Shown in pieces: positions 1 through 63,849 of a DNA stretch of 64,000 nucleotides. The translations under genes were made by a program, and so were the position numbers. The notes beneath the pieces are model-generated. The model did no database searches and was not told the origin of the DNA. It saw only the letters and a program-made list of their open reading frames with translations. Source of the stretch: Candidatus Hydrogenedens sp. (GTDB lineage: Bacteria > Hydrogenedentota > Hydrogenedentia > Hydrogenedentales > Hydrogenedentaceae). Position 1 is the stretch's first letter, and the number at the start of each line of letters is the position of its first letter. Where the stretch lies: assembly GCA_049968235.1 (NCBI GenBank), contig JBMFRC010000006.1:96001-160000 (forward strand). Direction: 5' to 3'.

Positions 1-3000
1 ACTTATCCTTTTCTTATATTAGTTAATCCAACAGTAACTCAAAAATTAATAGGTACTCACTATATCTTTGGTAATGGAACCGATATAATAACTGATATAA
101 AAACACCTAGTACCGATTCAAGCACATTTTTCATTGTAGGTTATACCAATAGTTATTTTGAAAATTTTAATTGGAATAACACCGAATTTACTTCCAATCC
201 GTTTGATACCTCGCTCAATAATGGGGCAAATGAAAACTTTGATGCAATGGTATGGAGACTTCAATGGAACAGCATAGAAAATACAATCACGCCTACATGG
301 GGAACATTTTTAGGGGGAACTTTAAATGATACAGCATTGTCCATAGGTACTGTTGATAGTAATCACATTTGCTTTTCGGGTATAACAAATTCTCCTGATT
401 TCCCATTACAGGGGTGTCAAACTATAGCACCAGCATATTTACCAAGCCATTATTTATCTGCTTTTAATATATCGGGTAAAGTTATATATGTAAATCCTGA
501 CAGTTCTGTTGATCCCACTGATGGCAGTTCATGGGAAAAAGGTTACCATACTATTTCAGAAGCCATTAGTTCTGCTAACAACTATGATGAAATATGGATA
601 AAATCTGGATATTACAATGAAAGGCTTACAATTAATGGATTTTCAAATCTTATCTTGCGAGGTGGTTTTTCAGGTTTAGAAACGAATATAGATGAAATAA
701 ATCCATGGGAAAATCCAACAAAGATTTCCCCTATACAGGTAAAAGGAACGGGAAACTTAGGAACACCCACCTTAAATATTACATCGTGCATGAATATTGT
801 ATTAAATGGACTTGTTTTTGAAAGTGGAACTAATATACTTGGTGATGGTGGAGCCATAAATATTTCTAATTCCACTGTTCGTATCCTATGTTCTCAATTT
901 TACAAAAACAATTCAAATGGGAACGGTGGGGCTATCTATATTAATAATTCGTATGCAAACATCGCAAACTGTGTATTTGTTCAGAATTCTTGTTCAGGAA
1001 ACGGTTCGGGTATTTCTGCTAACGAATCTACAGTTAAAATTATACATTGCACATTTGCTAACAATTTTAATTCCGTTAGCGAAGATGTTAGCACTGTAGA
1101 CATTCAAGGTTCTACATCTATGCTAATGATACTCAACTCTATAATCTGGGCTAATGAGGGAAATACTCATGTTCAGATAAATTATCCTGAAATTATTCCT
1201 CCTGTAAATCTTCTATTCAGCCATTCAATTATCCAAAATTTCAGTTTATTATCTACACCACCATCACCCAATACCGTACTTGATACTAACCCTCTATTTA
1301 TTGAGAACCCGTCCGAAACAACACCTGGCGACTTAAATTTAAATCTGGAATCACCAGCGGTAAATCTTGCTGACCCAATCTCACTTACAATAGAATACGG
1401 TGCTGTTAATGAAGATATTCGTCGCAAACCGCGAATATTTATGGGAGAGAGTTGTAAACCTGATGCAGGAGCCTTCGAAATATTTCCTGCTCCCACACCT
1501 GTAATCACACTCTTGGGCGATAATCCCTTATATTTAACTATAAATAATCCCTACATTGAACCTGGATATGTATCTAAAGATGGATGTGATGTTGATATAA
1601 CATTTTTAGTAGATGTTACTTCCAATGTAAATACAGAACAGACAGGAGAATACACTGTAGAGTATTCGGTAATAAGTCCGTATGACCAGGGACAGATAAT
1701 AAAAGCAATCCGGAGAGTTATAGTCATCACTGCTTCATCGCAAATCATCCTTAACGGACCATCCGATGTGGTAATAGAATGTGGAAACTTTTTTATTGAC
1801 CCCGGTGCAGTAGCATTTGATTTATTGGGGAATAATATTTCCAATGAAATTATTGTTACGGATAATGTTGATTATTCAACTCCTGGAACATATACCATAG
1901 AATATAGTGTAACAGAGACAGAAAGCCATCCTGCCCTTCATGCTGTAAGAAATATAACGGTTCAGGATACAACTCCCCCAATACTTATTCTAATAGGTCC
2001 TCCGCAGATTACCATTCCTTGTGGTTCAACATGGTCTGACCCGGGATACATTGCATTTGACCAATGTTCACTTAATAATGTGCAGGTAAATGTAACAGGT
2101 AGTGTAAACACTTCTGCCACTGGAACCTATACGATTACTTACACTGCCTATGATGAGAACGAACATACATCCACTCTCACAAGAAAAGTCGTTGTTGATT
2201 GCAATATTCCTCAATTACAACAATGCCAGAATCAATGTTCTAATGATACTTCTCCTGTAGATAACGATGGAGATGGTCTATCATTTTGTATAGAGACTTG
2301 TTTGGGGACATCCGACCAGGATATAGATAGCGATGATGATAGTATGCCGGATTATTTTGAAGCAACATATAACTTAAATCCACTATTTAATGATGCGAAG
2401 GAAGATGCAGATTTAGATGGATTATCAAATCTTGAAGAATTTCTTACAAAGACCAATCCTATTGATTCCAATTCTCCATGGGAAGCCCATTATGTATCTA
2501 ATTCTGGCGATGACGATAATCCCGGGACATTGCAGTCCCCTCGTGCTACTATAACAACTACTCTTGGCAATATTAATACAAATCAAAATAAACAATCCTC
2601 TATTGTGCTGTTTCCAGGGAATTATTATGAAGATATTGTTTTATCAGAAAATATTGTTTTAATTGGAATCACAGCCTACGGTGAAAATAACAGACCTGTT
2701 ATCTACGGAAAAATTACGGGGGCTAATGGAGCAAAAATTTATAATGTTGATATAAAATCCAGTACAACCTCACCTGCAATAATTCCTGTTAAAGCCGAAG
2801 TTGAGAAGCCCATACTTCTGAATTGTGGTAATACTTCCATGCATATACGAAATGTCCGCTTTTTAGGTACAGGTTCGGAGATAGGTATATCTGTAGAAGG
2901 TGGAAATTGCTATAACACCATTATAGAGAGATGCCTCTTCCAGGATTTAAGTATTGGAATTCTAATAGGTGATAGTATCCCTGTTATCAGGAGATGCATT

Positions 3001-3957
3001 TTTAAATCATCACTTTCAACAAAAACTGATTCAACAGGTATTTATATTGAAGATAATTCAGGAAGTTACAATCCATCCAATTCTTTAGGTGATGTTAATG
3101 ACCCCAATACAGGTTGGAATACATTTAATCTTAATGGAGGAAAAGCGATAGTATGTAAAAGAGCCGAGGAGATTAAGGCTCATAACAATGACTGGGGAAC
3201 AGAGGATAGTGGAGAAATTTTAAATCAAGTTGAAGGAAATTTAGATACCCAATATTATCTGGGGAAAGGTAAAGCCATGATTGCTTCTTCACTTGCATGT
3301 GTTGTGTGGAATGCCAATAACAGAGACCCTATCATCAACGCCACGGTAGCAATAAATCCTTCTGTCTATCCACCATTAACACAAAATACAAAAGGCGTTT
3401 ATACTTTCTCATCCATTCCATCAGGGACCTATACCATAACAATATCTGCCCCTAATTTTTTAACACGACAGATTAATACAAATATACCTGAAGGAGATTT
3501 AAAATCTGAATCTGTAGCATTAAAACCTGTTGAAGGTGAAGGAACGGCTGATGGAGAAGGAACTACCGAAGGAATTCAAGAAGGTTCTACGGAAGGAACA
3601 ACTGAAGGTGAAAAAGAAATATTAATTCCTGATGTAAGAGGAATGTCTGTAGAGGAAGCAACTCAAGTATTAAATTCTGCAGGACTTCGTGTTTCAAATA
3701 CTATAAAAGAAGAATATAACCAGGAAGTTTCCAGAGGGAAAGTTACTCGAACGGAACCAGCAATCGGGACAAAAGTAGTCCAAAATACAGAAATAACTCT
3801 GGTAGTTAGTAAGGGGGCAAAAAGAAGATTTATTATTTCCTGTGGTCCTAATTACAATAGAAACTCGTATTGGGGCGATATAATCATTTGTATCTTTGCA
3901 TCCACCTTGCTTTTGTACAATCGTCCAGGAAAAGTATCTATAAATAAGAACAAATAA
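1..3957 (+). CDS. Giant secreted/surface multidomain protein, 5'-partial. It contains right-handed beta-helix repeats, three Ig-like (DUF5011-like) repeats, thrombospondin-type-3-like Ca-binding aspartate repeats, a second beta-helix, a carboxypeptidase-regulatory-like beta-sandwich, an acidic E/G/T linker, a C-terminal PASTA domain and a short hydrophobic tail.
   Basis: Frame 1 is open from nt 1 with no stop before the first ATG at 247, so the gene starts upstream of the window. Beta-helix NxxGGAI-type repeats are present (GGAINISNS, GGAIYINNS). Three repeats of about 80 aa have the form G.Y.DPG..A.D...tG.YTI.Y. Aspartate repeats read DNDGDG / DSDDDSMPD / DADLDGLSN. Residues near the C-terminus (IPDVRGMSVEEATQVLNSAGLRV...TLVVSKG) fit the PASTA consensus closely. 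Confidence 0.7.
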   Translation, partial: TYPFLILVNPTVTQKLIGTHYIFGNGTDIITDIKTPSTDSSTFFIVGYTNSYFENFNWNNTEFTSNPFDTSLNNGANENFDAMVWRLQWNSIENTITPTWGTFLGGTLNDTALSIGTVDSNHICFSGITNSPDFPLQGCQTIAPAYLPSHYLSAFNISGKVIYVNPDSSVDPTDGSSWEKGYHTISEAISSANNYDEIWIKSGYYNERLTINGFSNLILRGGFSGLETNIDEINPWENPTKISPIQVKGTGNLGTPTLNITSCMNIVLNGLVFESGTNILGDGGAINISNSTVRILCSQFYKNNSNGNGGAIYINNSYANIANCVFVQNSCSGNGSGISANESTVKIIHCTFANNFNSVSEDVSTVDIQGSTSMLMILNSIIWANEGNTHVQINYPEIIPPVNLLFSHSIIQNFSLLSTPPSPNTVLDTNPLFIENPSETTPGDLNLNLESPAVNLADPISLTIEYGAVNEDIRRKPRIFMGESCKPDAGAFEIFPAPTPVITLLGDNPLYLTINNPYIEPGYVSKDGCDVDITFLVDVTSNVNTEQTGEYTVEYSVISPYDQGQIIKAIRRVIVITASSQIILNGPSDVVIECGNFFIDPGAVAFDLLGNNISNEIIVTDNVDYSTPGTYTIEYSVTETESHPALHAVRNITVQDTTPPILILIGPPQITIPCGSTWSDPGYIAFDQCSLNNVQVNVTGSVNTSATGTYTITYTAYDENEHTSTLTRKVVVDCNIPQLQQCQNQCSNDTSPVDNDGDGLSFCIETCLGTSDQDIDSDDDSMPDYFEATYNLNPLFNDAKEDADLDGLSNLEEFLTKTNPIDSNSPWEAHYVSNSGDDDNPGTLQSPRATITTTLGNINTNQNKQSSIVLFPGNYYEDIVLSENIVLIGITAYGENNRPVIYGKITGANGAKIYNVDIKSSTTSPAIIPVKAEVEKPILLNCGNTSMHIRNVRFLGTGSEIGISVEGGNCYNTIIERCLFQDLSIGILIGDSIPVIRRCIFKSSLSTKTDSTGIYIEDNSGSYNPSNSLGDVNDPNTGWNTFNLNGGKAIVCKRAEEIKAHNNDWGTEDSGEILNQVEGNLDTQYYLGKGKAMIASSLACVVWNANNRDPIINATVAINPSVYPPLTQNTKGVYTFSSIPSGTYTITISAPNFLTRQINTNIPEGDLKSESVALKPVEGEGTADGEGTTEGIQEGSTEGTTEGEKEILIPDVRGMSVEEATQVLNSAGLRVSNTIKEEYNQEVSRGKVTRTEPAIGTKVVQNTEITLVVSKGAKRRFIISCGPNYNRNSYWGDIIICIFASTLLLYNRPGKVSINKNK

Positions 3958-60353: not shown

Positions 60354-61052
60354 TCAAACACCTTTTTCTAAATTAAAAACAGGGTATTTGTTTAAGGGGC
60401 ATTGTGAGCATTTAGATATTTTTCTACAATAATCTTTTCCTGTCCAGACAATAAGCCCATGATATTCTTTATAAATATGGACATCTCGAGGTAAATATTT
60501 GTGAAAATAGTTTTGTATCTCATTATAATTTAATTTTTCATTGAGAAGTCCATGTCTTGAAAAGATTCTTTTGGTGTATGCATCTACAACAAAAATCTGA
60601 TGTCCACATGCATATAGTAAAATATCATCAGCAGTTTCGGGACCGATACCTTTTATATTTAGTAGTTCATTTCTCAATTCAATTGTATTTTTGTGTTTCA
60701 TTTTTTCAATTTTTCCATCATATTTGTCAATCAAATAATTACAAAATATGATGAGCCGTTCCGCTTTTTGTCGGAAATATCCTGAGGGGCGAATAGCCTG
60801 TTCTAATTGATTTTTATTACATTGGACTATTTTATAAGGGTTGAGTAATTGTTGGTTTTTCAAATTCTCTATGGCTTTTTCCACATTAGTCCATGCTGTA
60901 TTTTGTGTTAATATAGCACCTATAGCTATTTCAAATGGGGTATCACCGGGCCACCAGCCTGTTGGGCCATAAAAATCCGATAAGGTATTATAAATATCCA
61001 TTAATTTTGGTTGTTCTATTGTCTCTCTCTTCTTCCTATTACAAAACTTCAT
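60354..61052 (-). CDS. HhH-GPD superfamily DNA glycosylase (endonuclease III-like)
   Basis: A helix-hairpin-helix LLNIKGIGPETADDILLYA is followed by the catalytic Asp (VVDAYTKR) and C-terminal Cys residues. Confidence 0.65.
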   Translation of the reverse strand: MKFCNRKKRETIEQPKLMDIYNTLSDFYGPTGWWPGDTPFEIAIGAILTQNTAWTNVEKAIENLKNQQLLNPYKIVQCNKNQLEQAIRPSGYFRQKAERLIIFCNYLIDKYDGKIEKMKHKNTIELRNELLNIKGIGPETADDILLYACGHQIFVVDAYTKRIFSRHGLLNEKLNYNEIQNYFHKYLPRDVHIYKEYHGLIVWTGKDYCRKISKCSQCPLNKYPVFNLEKGV

Positions 61053-61054
61053 GT

Positions 61055-61987
61055 TTATGTTATTCTTTCAACTTCATTCCGTATTGCTCGGATGTGTTCA
61101 GGTGTGGTTCCACAACATCCGCCAATAATTCTGGCTCCATTTTTATAAAAATTAAAAACATATTTTGCCAATATTTCCGGTGTTTCCGGATAATGAATTC
61201 CTTCATCAGTTAATTGAGGTTGCCCTGCATTGGGATATACTAAAAAGGGTATTTCTTTTTCAAAAGCATACATTTTTTGCAATAGGATATTCATGTCCTC
61301 AACGCTTAATGTGCAATTTACCCCAAGAATAGAAACTCCTATTTGTTTCATCTCTTGAATAAACATTTCCGGTGTTGTACCCATAATCGTGTTAAAACGT
61401 TCTCCGATACTACTTCTCATAAAAGTAAAACTGACAACTATCTCCAATTTTGTATTTTCTTTTACAGCATATACAGCACATCGAGCTTCATCCAAATCGG
61501 ACATTGTTTCAATTGTGCAAGAATCTGCTCCCCCTTCTTCTAAGGCAATAGCCTGCTCACGGAATGCTTCATACAACTCATCTTCGGATACATCACCCAT
61601 CATTATAAATTTACCACTGGGACCGATAGAAGCAAGAACATGATGCTCTTCCCCTATTGCTTTTCTTGTTAGATAAGCAGATTTCCTGTTGATTTCTTTT
61701 GCTTCATCTTCTAAACCAAAAGACTTTAATTTTATCCGATTTCCACCGAAACTATTCGTTGAGACCAAATCGGCTCCTGCTTCCTTATACGCAATGGCAA
61801 TATCACCTATGATGTCCGGATGTTTAACATTCCATAGTTCTGGACATTCCCCTGCCTGCATGCCTGCTTTTATTAATAATGTTCCCCATCCCCCATCACC
61901 GACCAGAATTTTACCCGCCTTTATTGATGCTAAAATACTATCCATTAACTTTTTTCTTCTCCCATCCTTTTTATTAAGTGTTTCCAT
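61055..61987 (-). CDS. Homocysteine S-methyltransferase domain protein (MetH N-terminal-module-like)
   Basis: The protein contains ILVGDGGWGT, DLVSTNSF and a C-terminal GGCCGTTPEHI, the zinc/Hcy-binding cysteines. Confidence 0.8.
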   Translation of the reverse strand: METLNKKDGRRKKLMDSILASIKAGKILVGDGGWGTLLIKAGMQAGECPELWNVKHPDIIGDIAIAYKEAGADLVSTNSFGGNRIKLKSFGLEDEAKEINRKSAYLTRKAIGEEHHVLASIGPSGKFIMMGDVSEDELYEAFREQAIALEEGGADSCTIETMSDLDEARCAVYAVKENTKLEIVVSFTFMRSSIGERFNTIMGTTPEMFIQEMKQIGVSILGVNCTLSVEDMNILLQKMYAFEKEIPFLVYPNAGQPQLTDEGIHYPETPEILAKYVFNFYKNGARIIGGCCGTTPEHIRAIRNEVERIT

Positions 61988-62784
61988 GTTTCTTTCACTA
62001 AAAAACTATTTGGGGCATCTTTTTCAACCTGTAAAAACAATTCCCATGGGAAAGCAATTGTTAAATAGTTATCACCTATCTGCTTTTTAACATTTAATCG
62101 TGCAGAAATATCTGTCAAACCAATAACCGATTTAGGCTCTTCACCTTCTTTTATATATGCCCAAATACCTATTGTCTGACATCCTGCTGAATACGGAGCA
62201 ATGACGCTATTCATTGTTCTACTACGGAAATTGGCAAGGATTATTAATGCTGACAACTGATGTGGCTCCACTAAAAAAACGACCGTCCTGGGTTGTTCAA
62301 TATCAGAATTCACTTGTGATAAAGGCTTGAAGATAACATAATCATATGGGATATCGATAATGGGTAATGATTGAATAAAATTCTGAACTTGCTCCGGTGC
62401 GGATAGATACCCTTCTCCATATAAGAAATCCTGTATAAATTCAGGTGTAACTAAATTTCTAATTTGTTCTGCGACACCTTCGCCAATAGGATTCCCCTTA
62501 TTACCTGTCGAAAGAAATCTACAAAAACAATCTTCACCTCCGGGAAAATCTTTATAACAATTTCCGAAACCAAGTCCGATACCACCACCCCAACAGCCAT
62601 AGGTCTCCCGAGAGAATACCGCTGTCTTCCCCTTGGCAGAACTAACGAACCACCACATTACACAACCCCATTTGCCAGGTTTAAATTCTATCGCATGTTC
62701 TGGTTTTTGATTTGACCATAATATCGCTACAGGCTCATATTTCAAAGATAATAAATCCGAAAGAATCGTTTTCATACTTTTCAC
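61945..62784 (-). CDS. DUF169-family protein
   Basis: A conserved uncharacterised family recognised by overall pattern. It lies between the corrinoid protein and the Hcy methyltransferase genes. Confidence 0.5.
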   Translation of the reverse strand: MKSMKTILSDLLSLKYEPVAILWSNQKPEHAIEFKPGKWGCVMWWFVSSAKGKTAVFSRETYGCWGGGIGLGFGNCYKDFPGGEDCFCRFLSTGNKGNPIGEGVAEQIRNLVTPEFIQDFLYGEGYLSAPEQVQNFIQSLPIIDIPYDYVIFKPLSQVNSDIEQPRTVVFLVEPHQLSALIILANFRSRTMNSVIAPYSAGCQTIGIWAYIKEGEEPKSVIGLTDISARLNVKKQIGDNYLTIAFPWELFLQVEKDAPNSFLVKETWKHLIKRMGEEKS

Positions 62785-63462
62785 TTAACTTGCTAATCCT
62801 AATTTTTCATCGAGATATTCAATACAACCTTGTGGGTCTGGGGAATAGGCATCTGCACCTATTTTATTGCAAAAGTCTTGTGTCAATGGTGCTCCTCCTA
62901 CTACTATGGTAACATCAGGAACTTCCGATTTCAGGACTTTAACTGCTTTCTCCATGTTAATCATTGTAGTTGTTAACAGGGCACTCATTCCGACAACAGC
63001 ACCCGGATTTTCTTTTAATACTTGAAGGAATTTTTCAGGGGAAGTATCAACGCCCAAATCTATAACTTTCCAGCCAGCACCTTCCATCATCATTCGAACA
63101 AGATTTTTACCTATATCGTGTAAATCCCCCTGAACTGTTCCTATAATAAAAATTCCTTTATGTTTTGCTTCGCCCCGTTCAAAAGCACTTTTTAAAAAGG
63201 GCATACCCGCATTCATTGCTCGCGCTGACATTAAAACATCCGGAACAAACACTTCATTACAACTAAACTTTTTACCAATAACACTCATACCTTTCATCAA
63301 GCCATCACTTAATATTTGACTTGCAGGTATTCCCATTGCAAGTGCTTGTTGAACTAATTCTTCTGCTCCATCCTGTCCTTTTAAGTCAGGTGGATAAGGA
63401 GAATTTTTGTTAATTTTCCCTCTTTCAACGCAAGTTGCAATTTGTTCCAAAATATTTTCCAT
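62785..63462 (-). CDS. Cobalamin-binding corrinoid protein (B12-binding cap + Rossmann domain, MetH/MtaC-like)
   Basis: The DxHxxG motif (DLHDIGKN), SALLTTT and GGAP are present. An N-terminal helical cap domain is also present. Confidence 0.85.
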   Translation of the reverse strand: MENILEQIATCVERGKINKNSPYPPDLKGQDGAEELVQQALAMGIPASQILSDGLMKGMSVIGKKFSCNEVFVPDVLMSARAMNAGMPFLKSAFERGEAKHKGIFIIGTVQGDLHDIGKNLVRMMMEGAGWKVIDLGVDTSPEKFLQVLKENPGAVVGMSALLTTTMINMEKAVKVLKSEVPDVTIVVGGAPLTQDFCNKIGADAYSPDPQGCIEYLDEKLGLAS

Positions 63463-63525: not shown

Positions 63526-63849
63526 TTAAGAAATCCTTTTCCAATTGTGACCCCCGCCTTTTTTACATGGGACATTGCCATAAGGGCTATCCTTTGACCT
63601 TATTAGTAAGCCACATTTACTACATTGATAATTTCTATCTCCGACTTCACCCAAACAACGCCAGGAATGTCCACCGCCTGCATTATAACTTCCCATCATG
63701 GGTTGATTTACTGATTCTATATGCGTCCCACATTTGGGGCAATAATAGTTTTTTAGGGATTTTACTTCGGCTAATGTGGAATGAGTAAGAAGAAATAGAA
63801 AAAGAATTAAACACATTATAGTTATGAGAAAATATATTTTTCGTTTCAT
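63526..63849 (-). CDS. Small secreted Cys-rich protein with internally duplicated CxxC...GGGHxW module
   Basis: After a signal peptide the sequence reads CPKCGTHIES...GGGHSWRC and then CSKCGLLIRS...GGGHNWKR, a two-fold internal repeat. Confidence 0.45.
   Translation of the reverse strand: MKRKIYFLITIMCLILFLFLLTHSTLAEVKSLKNYYCPKCGTHIESVNQPMMGSYNAGGGHSWRCLGEVGDRNYQCSKCGLLIRSKDSPYGNVPCKKGGGHNWKRIS

What the first reader, a model, noticed from the sequence alone, without database searches (positions are those of the whole stretch)
61055..63462. Split methionine-synthase-like trio: corrinoid protein, DUF169, homocysteine methyltransferase (no pterin-binding module in sight)
A B12-binding cap + Rossmann protein (DxHxxG) is followed by a DUF169 protein, and the Hcy S-methyltransferase gene overlaps DUF169 by 43 nt. 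This equals modules 1 and 3 of MetH as separate polypeptides, plus an unknown-function DUF169 where the methyl-donor-binding (pterin) module would be expected. The trio may be a corrinoid-dependent homocysteine methylation system using a non-canonical methyl donor, or a split MetH whose MeTr module is encoded elsewhere. The downstream ahcY in the same window fits a methionine/SAM-cycle context.
Basis: partly seen in the sequence, partly recalled or inferred. Interest (0 to 1): 0.5.

Follow-up and report, generated by a model that had tools for sequence, protein, structure and literature searches.

The report
Split methionine-synthase pair with inserted DUF169
A Candidatus Hydrogenedens bacterium carries separate genes for the vitamin-B12 carrier and the homocysteine-methylating part of a methionine-synthase-like system, and in this one narrow lineage a gene of unknown function (DUF169) sits where related bacteria keep a methyl-donor enzyme; nothing found outside this lineage ties DUF169 to B12 chemistry.

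Summary
The three minus-strand genes are real: a corrinoid protein (62785-63462), DUF169 (61945-62775) and a Zn-type homocysteine S-methyltransferase (HcyMT, 61055-61945). The 43-nt overlap comes from an upstream in-frame ATG. Homologue N-termini and gene calls support a 1-nt TAATG overlap.

The corrinoid+HcyMT pair belongs to a widespread stand-alone family. In 80 orthologous loci:
- 40 have the corrinoid gene within 4 kb.
- 34 have a URO-D/MtaA-family methyltransferase.
- 26 have a MetH-type reactivation domain.
- 22 have a CobW-like GTPase.
- 3 have a pterin-binding protein, a true split MetH.
- None has DUF169.

Of 80 DUF169-orthologue loci, only the four from this clade carry corrinoid/HcyMT neighbours. 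That clade is closely related (GlmS at least 89% identical) and syntenic over about 20 kb, so the trio is one evolutionary event.

Verdict: this is the methionine-forming half of a modular corrinoid methyltransferase system, with its donor and reactivation modules unlinked. DUF169's role is unproven: passenger, accessory or new donor module. It is a new variant of a known kind, of moderate interest.

The parts
62785..63462 (-). Corrinoid (cobalamin-binding) carrier protein, 225 aa: B12-binding cap plus Rossmann domain with DxHxxG (GDLHDIGKN). It is of the methyltransferase-cognate (MtxC) type.
   Evidence: Pfam PF02607 and PF02310. NCBIfam best hits are MtgC-type (191 bits) and TIGR02370 (174 bits), both below their cut-offs. 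The best solved relatives are the Moorella corrinoid protein 1y80 (E 5e-49), MttC, chain 4jgi and MtmC, all ahead of MetH. It is 58% identical to the corrinoid protein of the URO-D-type cluster in L009. dN/dS is 0.016-0.03 within the clade.
61945..62775 (-). DUF169 (PF02596/COG2043) protein, 276 aa from ATG 62775 (alternative GTG 62784). Invariant residues include C38, C61 and C199 and the Gly-rich GCWGGGxGLGFG loop. Its function is unknown.
61055..61945 (-). Stand-alone homocysteine S-methyltransferase (MetH Hcy-module homologue), 296 aa from ATG 61945. The start shares one base with the DUF169 stop codon (TAATG).
   Evidence: Pfam PF02574 E 1e-71. Zn-ligand Cys triad and Hcy-binding D/E columns invariant in 24 orthologues. 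Best solved relative is the T. maritima MetH Hcy domain 1q7m, E 2e-48. The 296-aa start is supported.
60354..61052 (-). HhH-GPD DNA glycosylase (best match 3-methyladenine glycosylase type). It starts 2 nt after the HcyMT stop and is probably co-transcribed. It is not known to be part of the methyl-transfer system.
   Evidence: Pfam PF00730. NCBIfam PRK13913 130 bits, below its cut-off. Same position in every clade member.
63526..63849 (-). Small 107-aa protein with an N-terminal hydrophobic segment and two CxxC...GGGHxW repeats, 63 nt upstream of the corrinoid gene. It is conserved only within the clade and may be the first gene of the transcription unit.
   Evidence: ORF and sequence. Only sub-threshold zinc-ribbon matches. 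Homologues found only in clade loci (107-108-aa genes called at the same position).

Best explanation
The corrinoid protein and the HcyMT are the methyl-carrier and methyl-acceptor halves of a modular, MetH-like, three-component corrinoid methyltransferase system.

Proposed mechanism:
- A donor-specific methyltransferase methylates Co(I) on the carrier.
- The Zn-dependent HcyMT transfers that methyl group from CH3-Co(III) to homocysteine, giving methionine.

The pair belongs to a widespread stand-alone family whose donor partner varies. It is usually a URO-D/MtaA-family enzyme, occasionally a pterin-binding protein (a true split MetH), and in published cases an MttB homologue. The family often also carries a MetH-type reactivation domain and a CobW-like GTPase.

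In this Hydrogenedens clade the recognised donor and reactivation modules are not in the operon and must be encoded elsewhere. A DUF169 gene, whose orthologues elsewhere stand alone in unrelated contexts, was inserted once between the two genes and is co-expressed with them. Most likely it is not one of the methyl-transfer catalysts.

Shown here: domain identities, catalytic motifs, family-wide contexts, purifying selection. Inferred: direction of methyl flow, Hcy as acceptor, an unlinked donor module, and the passenger or peripheral status of DUF169.
For: - Domain and motif assignments.
- 80 HcyMT-orthologue loci at 45-56% identity: corrinoid gene within 4 kb in 40, URO-D in 34, Met_synt_B12 in 26, CobW in 22, Pterin_bind in 3, DUF169 in 0.
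- Precomputed Pfam tables for L009 and L010 show corr-UROD-HcyMT-CobW-Met_synt_B12 and UROD-corr-HcyMT.
- In the NJ tree the trio clade forms a single branch beside the rest of the family. Its most similar outside relatives, L011 and L012 (56% and 54%), carry corrinoid and URO-D genes.
- 80 DUF169 loci: only the 4 clade members are flanked by corrinoid and HcyMT genes. The other contexts are heterogeneous: flagellar/csrA, OYE/ArsP, FolC/LptD, TrmO/PALP, transporters.
- The clade is shallow and syntenic over about 20 kb.
- No DUF169 fusions, no homology to methyltransferase modules, and no significant solved structural relative.
- Literature precedent for modular HcyMT plus corrinoid systems: PMC5764234 (read as preprint 10.1101/192971), PMC12478193, PMC9324843.
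Against: - No donor methyltransferase or reactivation module was found in the 64-kb window, and the rest of the genome could not be searched. The 'unlinked partner' is therefore assumed, not shown.
- DUF169 is translationally coupled on both sides (9-nt gap, 1-nt overlap).
- It occupies exactly the slot held by URO-D in L009.
- It is under purifying selection (dN/dS 0.04-0.07).
- It diverges in lock-step with HcyMT.
- All of these would also fit a direct functional role. Thirty-two of the 80 orthologous HcyMT genes have no recognisable partner nearby, so context is not uniformly informative.
Confidence: 0.55

Rival explanations
1. DUF169 is an accessory factor of the corrinoid system rather than a methyltransferase. 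It could act in reductive reactivation of Co(II), cobamide loading, or metal delivery. It would stand in for the Met_synt_B12 and CobW genes that accompany the pair in other lineages, much as DUF1638 and a RamA-like protein serve the split MetH of Phaeobacter.
For: The clade's operon lacks both the Met_synt_B12 and CobW genes found in 26 and 22 of 80 orthologous loci. DUF169 has three invariant cysteines and a Gly-rich loop, compatible with a metal or cofactor site. It is tightly coupled, selected and co-diverging with HcyMT. A DUF protein next to the corrinoid and HcyMT genes has already proved necessary for methionine synthesis and was assigned to B12 reactivation.
Against: None of 76 orthologues outside the clade is next to any corrinoid gene. 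There are no fusions, no nucleotide-binding or known redox domain detected, and no similarity to Met_synt_B12 or CobW. A general corrinoid helper would be expected to show at least occasional linkage elsewhere. The only other hint is a published figure legend placing DUF169 near hgcA-like genes in Nitrospina, which was not verified here.
Confidence: 0.17
2. DUF169 is a new kind of methyl-donor:corrinoid methyltransferase (MT1) that replaced the URO-D partner. The trio would then be a complete methionine synthase using a non-folate donor.
For: DUF169 sits in the same slot as URO-D in L009. The closest outside relatives of the pair have URO-D and this clade does not. No other donor module is present in 64 kb. 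The donor slot of this family is demonstrably variable: URO-D of two types, Pterin_bind, and an unknown 355-aa protein in Victivallaceae. Purifying selection and rate matching with HcyMT also fit.
Against: The evidence is a single evolutionary event in a clade whose GlmS is >=89% identical. Orthologues at 48-57% identity in other phyla keep all invariant residues yet stand alone in unrelated contexts, which implies a conserved function that needs no adjacent corrinoid carrier. The predicted structure gave no significant match to any solved structure, and its best weak matches are thiolase-like/ketosynthase domains; known corrinoid methyltransferase modules are, from general knowledge, TIM barrels. 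There is no profile similarity to methyltransferase modules and no fusions.
Confidence: 0.12
3. The pair does not primarily make methionine de novo. It would serve methyl-sulfur or methyl-selenium salvage or exchange, for example moving methyl groups between thioethers or selenoethers and a thiol. The HcyMT-like enzyme would act on a related thiol/selenol or in concert with a thiol-methylating MtaA-type enzyme. DUF169, a cysteine-rich protein, would handle the sulfur or selenium substrate.
For: In Bacteroidota the partner is an MtaA/CmuA-type enzyme (NCBIfam 148-160 bits, below cut-off) fused to thioredoxin-like domains; the named family members methylate the thiol coenzyme M. A canonical 1217-aa MetH lies next to the stand-alone HcyMT in L070, so the pair is not needed there as the only methionine synthase. 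AraC regulators upstream suggest substrate induction. Kountz and Balskus propose methyl-S/Se roles for corrinoid plus UroD clusters that lack a folate methyltransferase. DUF169 neighbours elsewhere include TauE, ArsP and PALP enzymes.
Against: The Hcy-binding D/E columns and the Zn triad are fully conserved, and the closest solved relative is the MetH Hcy domain, so homocysteine remains the simplest acceptor. There is no direct evidence for any sulfur or selenium substrate.
Confidence: 0.1

Closest known systems
Cobalamin-dependent methionine synthase MetH (E. coli, T. maritima)
   Same: HcyMT is homologous to the MetH Hcy module, with the Zn Cys triad and an E of 2e-48 to 1q7m. The carrier has the cap plus Rossmann fold with DxHxxG. 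The presumed chemistry is CH3-Co(III) to homocysteine.
   Different: The modules are separate polypeptides. There is no pterin-binding module and no reactivation domain in the operon or the window. The carrier is closer to methylotrophy-type corrinoid proteins than to the MetH B12 domain. Stand-alone HcyMTs form a clade well separated from a MetH N-terminus.
Three-part split methionine synthase of Phaeobacter inhibens and MtgBCDE of Ruegeria pomeroyi (PMC5764234; PMC12478193)
   Same: A separate Hcy-binding protein plus a separate corrinoid protein. In that system the carrier is shared between methionine synthesis and a non-folate donor methyltransferase (MtgB). A DUF protein (DUF1638) encoded beside the carrier is required.
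   Different: Those systems have a defined pterin-binding subunit and RamA-like plus DUF1638 reactivation proteins. None was found here. Whether this pair is orthologous to the alphaproteobacterial one was not tested. Only three PVC relatives of this HcyMT have an adjacent Pterin_bind gene.
MttB-homologue + HcyMT + corrinoid protein + activation-domain cluster noted in Electryoneota and 'diverse bacteria' (Williams et al. 2022, PMC9324843)
   Same: The same concept and the same HcyMT/carrier core: a corrinoid-dependent methionine synthesis proposed to use an unknown, non-folate methyl donor.
   Different: The donor module there is a non-pyrrolysine MttB/MtgB homologue and an activation domain is present. 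Here neither is present and DUF169 fills the slot. In most relatives found here the partner is a URO-D-family protein instead.
MtaABC/MtbA/MtsA methylotrophic systems and type 1 mlp clusters (Kountz and Balskus, PMC10418091)
   Same: An MtxC-type corrinoid carrier. Sister lineages of this pair carry MtaA/CmuA-family URO-D proteins. Like the mlp clusters, they lack a tetrahydrofolate methyltransferase.
   Different: The methyl acceptor enzyme is a MetH-type HcyMT rather than a second URO-D protein. No RACE/RamA gene was seen. The window itself has no URO-D gene at all.
Core-MetE / Mes folate-independent methionine synthases (PMC7857596; PMC7005905)
   Same: Homocysteine methylation from a methyl-corrinoid rather than directly from methyl-folate.
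   Different: Those enzymes are MetE-fold proteins unrelated in sequence to PF02574. Here the acceptor enzyme is of the MetH Hcy-module type.

Membership tests
MetH-type cobalamin-dependent methionine synthase (split form) | Hcy-binding S-methyl_trans (PF02574) module with a Zn-binding Cys triad | tested here: met
   Pfam E 1e-71. C211/C277/C278 are invariant. Aligns with the T. maritima MetH Hcy domain at E 2e-48.
MetH-type cobalamin-dependent methionine synthase (split form) | B12-binding cap plus Rossmann domain with DxHxxG | tested here: met
   PF02607 and PF02310. GDLHDIGKN is visible in the sequence.
MetH-type cobalamin-dependent methionine synthase (split form) | Pterin-binding (PF00809) methyl-tetrahydrofolate module | tested here: not met
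   Absent from the operon and from the whole 64-kb window: tblastn with a MetH Fol domain and hmmsearch with a 4-sequence Fol HMM gave no hits at E<=10. Absent from syntenic clade loci +/-10 kb. The rest of the genome is not testable with these tools.
MetH-type cobalamin-dependent methionine synthase (split form) | Reactivation module (PF02965 domain or RamA-like activase) | tested here: inconclusive
   No PF02965 homologue in the window or in the clade loci tables. RamA/DUF4445 was not searched for with a seed.
Three-component corrinoid methyltransferase systems (MT1 / corrinoid protein / MT2) | MtxC-type stand-alone corrinoid protein | tested here: met
   The best solved relatives are 1y80, MttC, chain 4jgi and MtmC, all ahead of MetH. 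The NCBIfam TIGR02370 and MtgC models are the top hits but fall below their curated cut-offs.
Three-component corrinoid methyltransferase systems (MT1 / corrinoid protein / MT2) | Adjacent substrate-specific MT1 of a known family (URO-D, MttB/MtgB, MtaB, Pterin_bind) | tested here: not met
   None in the operon or window. One is present next to orthologous pairs in 34 (URO-D) and 3 (Pterin_bind) of 80 loci.
DUF169 (PF02596 / COG2043) | Full-length match to the family profile with the family's invariant residues | tested here: met
   E 1.3e-44 over profile positions 2-208 of 209. All invariant columns of 52 orthologues are retained.
Corrinoid methyltransferase (DUF169 considered as a candidate MT1) | Homology or fold resemblance to a known methyl-donor:corrinoid methyltransferase | tested here: not met
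Corrinoid methyltransferase (DUF169 considered as a candidate MT1) | Recurrent genomic linkage or fusion with corrinoid proteins across lineages | tested here: not met
   Four of 80 loci, all in one clade. No fusion among the best 150 of 1215 family clusters.

The most novel reading that the evidence does not exclude
DUF169 takes a direct part in corrinoid-dependent methyl transfer. It would be either a new class of methyl-donor:corrinoid methyltransferase, unlike any solved one, that replaced the URO-D partner, or a new reactivation or chaperone factor for the carrier. This Hydrogenedens operon would then be the first functional handle on a cysteine-rich family of unknown function that is found across anaerobic bacteria and archaea. 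It could also bear on how other stand-alone corrinoid proteins, such as HgcA, get their methyl group.
Probability: 0.25. Interest if true: 0.75.

Novelty: new variant of a known kind. Interest (0 to 1): 0.4.

Why it matters
Modular corrinoid systems that feed methyl groups from unusual donors straight into methionine are only now being recognised (Ruegeria MtgBCDE; the MttB-type cluster of Williams et al.).

This locus shows that its HcyMT plus carrier core belongs to a large family across Bacteroidota, PVC, Fibrobacterota and Hydrogenedentota. The usual partner is an MtaA-type enzyme, with a CobW-like GTPase and a MetH-type reactivation domain. I found no description of that cluster in the searchable literature.

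The DUF169 insertion is the only observed case of that unknown family embedded in such a system. If the link is functional it would assign a role to DUF169. If not, the locus is a warning that tight operon packing within one shallow clade is weak evidence of function.

Tried and rejected
- The 1236-aa ORF at 247-3957 was checked as a possible MetH. It is a repeat-rich surface-type protein with no Hcy or B12 hits.
- A riboswitch upstream of the operon was looked for (SAM or cobalamin). None was found in the window at Rfam gathering thresholds.
- The promoter/terminator scan was uninformative: counts were at shuffle level.
- The 'split' HcyMT in MAG GCA_049969095.1 was considered as evidence of decay. 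It is a run of N in the scaffold.
- DUF169 was searched against plasmids by tblastn, with no match.
- The afdb50 fold library was unavailable. No model coordinates were exposed, so clustering of the invariant cysteines could not be measured.
- Literature searches on DUF169 and COG2043 gave only incidental mentions: nitrate-resistance fitness in D. alaskensis, a YedE-associated gene list, SepRS neighbourhoods, and Nitrospina hgcA-like scaftigs.
- I searched for the Hydrogenedentota-type URO-D, hoping to find it in trio-bearing MAGs. The family proved 70-78% identical across many phyla, so the top 120 hits could not be assigned to genomes. The Mahella australiensis copy sits in a sulfatase/GH123 sugar cluster without corrinoid genes.
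- ahcY as supporting context was rejected.
Full report
**What is there.** The window region 61055-63462 holds three co-oriented minus-strand genes.
- The first (62785-63462, 225 aa) has the B12-binding cap and the Rossmann B12-binding domain (Pfam E 6e-18 and 1.5e-24). It shows the DxHxxG signature as GDLHDIGKN.
- The second is a DUF169/COG2043 protein (E 1.3e-44). It has no NCBIfam model and no sequence relative in the PDB.
- The third is a homocysteine S-methyltransferase domain protein (PF02574, E 1e-71). Its closest solved relative is the Hcy module of T. maritima MetH (E 2e-48). Its Zn-ligand cysteines (C211, C277, C278) and the D17/G18 and E146 columns are invariant in 24 orthologues.

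The 43-nt overlap depends on an upstream in-frame ATG at 61987. The orthologue consensus begins at the Met encoded at 61945. A database protein 100% identical over all 296 aa, the gene call in a >=99.7% identical MAG, and the call in a 76%-identity relative are all 296 aa. The true junction is thus a TAATG one-base overlap. DUF169 most likely starts at ATG 62775, 9 nt after the corrinoid stop codon. An HhH-GPD glycosylase gene begins 2 nt after the HcyMT stop. A small cysteine-rich gene lies 63 nt upstream of the corrinoid gene.

**Organism and clade.** Best hits name Candidatus Hydrogenedens. Two MAG contigs (GCA_049969095.1, GCA_049971155.1) are >=99.7% identical to the window. The same order recurs in every clade member examined: chromate transporter on the opposite strand, small protein, corrinoid, DUF169, HcyMT, HhH-GPD, fba, glmS, then ahcY on the opposite strand. 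This clade is shallow. At the deepest comparison GlmS and AhcY are still 89% identical, while DUF169 and HcyMT are 64% and 63%. Conservation of the trio is therefore one inherited event, not repeated independent evidence. ahcY lies 4.2 kb away on the other strand behind three unrelated genes, and none of the 80 other HcyMT loci has an AhcY match. It adds nothing to the argument.

**The pair belongs to a large stand-alone family.** A scan of one genome per GTDB species returned 80 loci encoding orthologues 45-56% identical to this HcyMT. They come from Bacteroidota, Hydrogenedentota, PVC phyla, Fibrobacterota, Ignavibacteriales and others. I labelled neighbours using seeds and HMMs anchored on precomputed Pfam tables. 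Within 4 kb of HcyMT:

| Neighbour | Loci (of 80) |
|---|---|
| Corrinoid protein (58% identical to the window's in L009) | 40 |
| URO-D-family protein | 34 |
| Met_synt_B12 reactivation domain | 26 |
| CobW/ZigA-like GTPase | 22 |
| Pterin_bind protein (Pfam-confirmed) | 3 |
| None of these | 32 |
| DUF169 | 0 |

- In Bacteroidota the URO-D partner is of the MtaA/CmuA type (NCBIfam 148-160 bits, below the curated cut-offs) and is fused to thioredoxin-like domains. AraC regulators often lie upstream.
- In L009 the order is corrinoid, URO-D, HcyMT. That is the same slot DUF169 occupies in the window.
- L070 has a canonical 1217-aa MetH right beside the stand-alone HcyMT, so the pair is not merely a fragmented MetH in that genome.
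- In an NJ tree the stand-alone HcyMTs form a tight group far from a MetH N-terminus. The trio clade is a single long branch beside all the other stand-alone HcyMTs. Its most similar outside relatives, L011 and L012 (56% and 54% identity), carry corrinoid plus URO-D genes.
- The carrier itself resembles methylotrophy-type corrinoid proteins (1y80, MttC, chain 4jgi, MtmC) more than the MetH B12 domain.

**DUF169 outside the clade.** A metagenome scan returned 80 loci with DUF169 orthologues.
- Only the four at >=70% identity, all Hydrogenedens-clade, are flanked by corrinoid and HcyMT genes. The other 76, at 48-57% identity, have none of corrinoid, HcyMT, URO-D, Pterin_bind, Met_synt_B12 or CobW within 4 kb.
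- Their neighbours are heterogeneous: a flagellar/csrA/fliW operon in Thermodesulfovibrio; OYE, ArsP and a metallo-beta-lactamase in Desulfatiglans; a FolC-like ligase plus LptD; TrmO_N plus a PALP enzyme; MFS and LysE transporters.
- A profile search of 1.84 billion cluster representatives found 1215 family clusters. The best 150 are all 357 aa or shorter, with no fusion partner.
- Profile-profile comparison with URO-D, Pterin_bind, HcyMT, Met_synt_B12 and CobW alignments gives probabilities of 2% or less.
- The literature offers no function. The only other hint of a corrinoid link is a figure legend placing DUF169 near hgcA-like genes in Nitrospina scaftigs, which I could not verify.

**Evidence that still favours a link.**
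- DUF169 is packed between two functionally coupled genes with a 9-nt gap and a 1-nt overlap.
- It is under clear purifying selection (dN/dS 0.04-0.07; 0.016-0.03 for the carrier; 0.06-0.07 for HcyMT).
- Across five clade members its divergence tracks that of HcyMT almost exactly: 89.6/89.8, 82.8/80.7, 76.3/77.6, 67.7/65.4 and 63.9/63.1% identity. Both diverge several times faster than GlmS or AhcY.
- The clade's operon lacks URO-D, Met_synt_B12 and CobW, and the whole 64-kb window has no homologue of them or of Pterin_bind.
- The donor slot of this family is demonstrably variable. In Victivallaceae it holds a 355-aa protein with no Pfam match and a weak core-MetE-like hit, followed by a CooC-like ATPase.
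- There is a precedent for a DUF protein encoded beside a split MetH being required: DUF1638 in Phaeobacter, assigned to B12 reactivation.

**Mechanism I commit to (confidence about 0.55).**
- The carrier cycles between Co(I) and CH3-Co(III).
- The Zn-dependent HcyMT moves the methyl group to homocysteine, forming methionine.
- The methyl group is loaded by a donor-specific methyltransferase encoded elsewhere. A URO-D-type enzyme is suggested by the most similar outside relatives, and a pterin-binding protein is also possible.
- Reactivation is also provided in trans.
- DUF169 is a later insertion that is co-expressed but is not a methyl-transfer catalyst.

Shown: domains, motifs, family contexts and selection. 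Inferred: the direction of methyl flow, the acceptor, and the unlinked partners.

Rivals:
- DUF169 as an accessory or reactivation factor (0.17).
- DUF169 as a new donor methyltransferase (0.12).
- A methyl-sulfur/selenium salvage role for the system rather than de novo methionine synthesis (0.10).

**Comparison with known systems.** In chemistry and core parts the locus resembles three known cases:
- MetH.
- The three-part split MetH of Phaeobacter and Ruegeria MtgBCDE, where one carrier serves both methionine synthesis and a non-folate donor.
- The MttB-homologue/HcyMT/carrier/activation cluster proposed by Williams et al. to make methionine from an unknown donor.

It fails the membership test for a complete split MetH, because no pterin module and no reactivation module were found in the window. 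It also fails the test for a complete MT1/CP/MT2 system, because no known MT1 is adjacent. It is best filed as a new variant of a known kind: the acceptor half of a modular corrinoid methionine-forming system, with a lineage-specific DUF169 insertion.

**Limits.**
- The rest of the genome could not be searched, so the presence of metH, metE, a stand-alone pterin-binding gene, URO-D or RamA elsewhere is unknown.
- Neighbour labelling in the 160 loci used simple ORF calling plus seeds and HMMs, spot-checked by Pfam and NCBIfam.
- dS values approach saturation beyond the closest comparison.
- The NJ tree is a rough distance tree without support values.

Noticed in passing
L009 7427-12514; L020, L031, L037, L040, L042, L047, L063-L065, L072, L074, L082 and others: A widespread cluster across Bacteroidota, FCB and PVC phyla and Hydrogenedentota: corrinoid protein, MtaA/CmuA-type URO-D (fused to two thioredoxin-like domains in Bacteroidota), stand-alone HcyMT, CobW/ZigA-like GTPase and a MetH-type reactivation domain, often with an AraC regulator upstream. 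I found no description of it in the searchable literature. It includes cultured Mariniphaga and Maribellus species.
   Followed up: partly
L035, L073, L080 (Victivallaceae), e.g. L080 5003-6927: HcyMT is followed by a 355-aa protein with no Pfam match and only a weak NCBIfam hit to archaeal 'methionine synthase' PRK00957 (core-MetE-like), then a CooC/ParA/NifH-like P-loop ATPase. This is another unknown occupant of the partner slot.
   Followed up: partly
L070 7947-13549: A Bacteroidales MAG encodes a canonical 1217-aa MetH (all modules) on the opposite strand, with one gene between it and the stand-alone HcyMT. The stand-alone enzyme therefore coexists with MetH there.
   Followed up: partly
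L010 8080-9165; L173 8001-9083 (Mahella australiensis): The Hydrogenedentota-type URO-D partner is 70-78% identical across distant phyla (Hydrogenedentes, Firmicutes, Atribacteria, FCB). In Mahella it sits in a sulfatase/GH123/sugar-acid cluster with no corrinoid gene. That raises the possibility of a glycan-linked substrate such as O-methyl sugars.
   Followed up: partly
window 60354-61052 (-): An HhH-GPD DNA glycosylase gene starts 2 nt after the HcyMT stop and keeps that position throughout the clade. Its best NCBIfam match is the 3-methyladenine glycosylase type, below cut-off. A different Nth-type HhH-GPD gene lies two genes upstream of HcyMT in L019, and L045 has a similar-sized weak HhH-GPD match in the same position.
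   Followed up: partly
window 63526-63849 (-): A small 107-aa protein has an N-terminal hydrophobic segment and two CxxC...GGGHxW repeats, with only sub-threshold zinc-ribbon matches. It is conserved upstream of the corrinoid gene only within the clade and evolves fast (43-74% identity).
   Followed up: partly
window 61055-62775 versus L091, L092, L006, L172, L171: Within the clade, DUF169 and HcyMT diverge in lock-step and several times faster than GlmS, AhcY or the corrinoid protein. Both show dN/dS of 0.04-0.07.
   Followed up: yes
L099, L102, L113; L122, L131, L133, L147, L148, L157, L162, L167: Recurrent DUF169 contexts outside the clade are TrmO_N-like protein, DUF169, then a 455-aa PLP (PALP) enzyme; and TPR protein, DUF169, a FolC-like Mur ligase, LptD, then a histidine kinase. 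The folC adjacency is a faint folate hint that was not pursued.
   Followed up: partly
window 247-3957 (+): A 1236-aa repeat-rich protein with a C-terminal hydrophobic segment. Its size suggested MetH, but it is unrelated.
   Followed up: partly
L001 2076-2085: The apparently split HcyMT gene (145 + 148 aa) in MAG GCA_049969095.1 is caused by a 10-N scaffold gap, not by a frameshift.
   Followed up: yes
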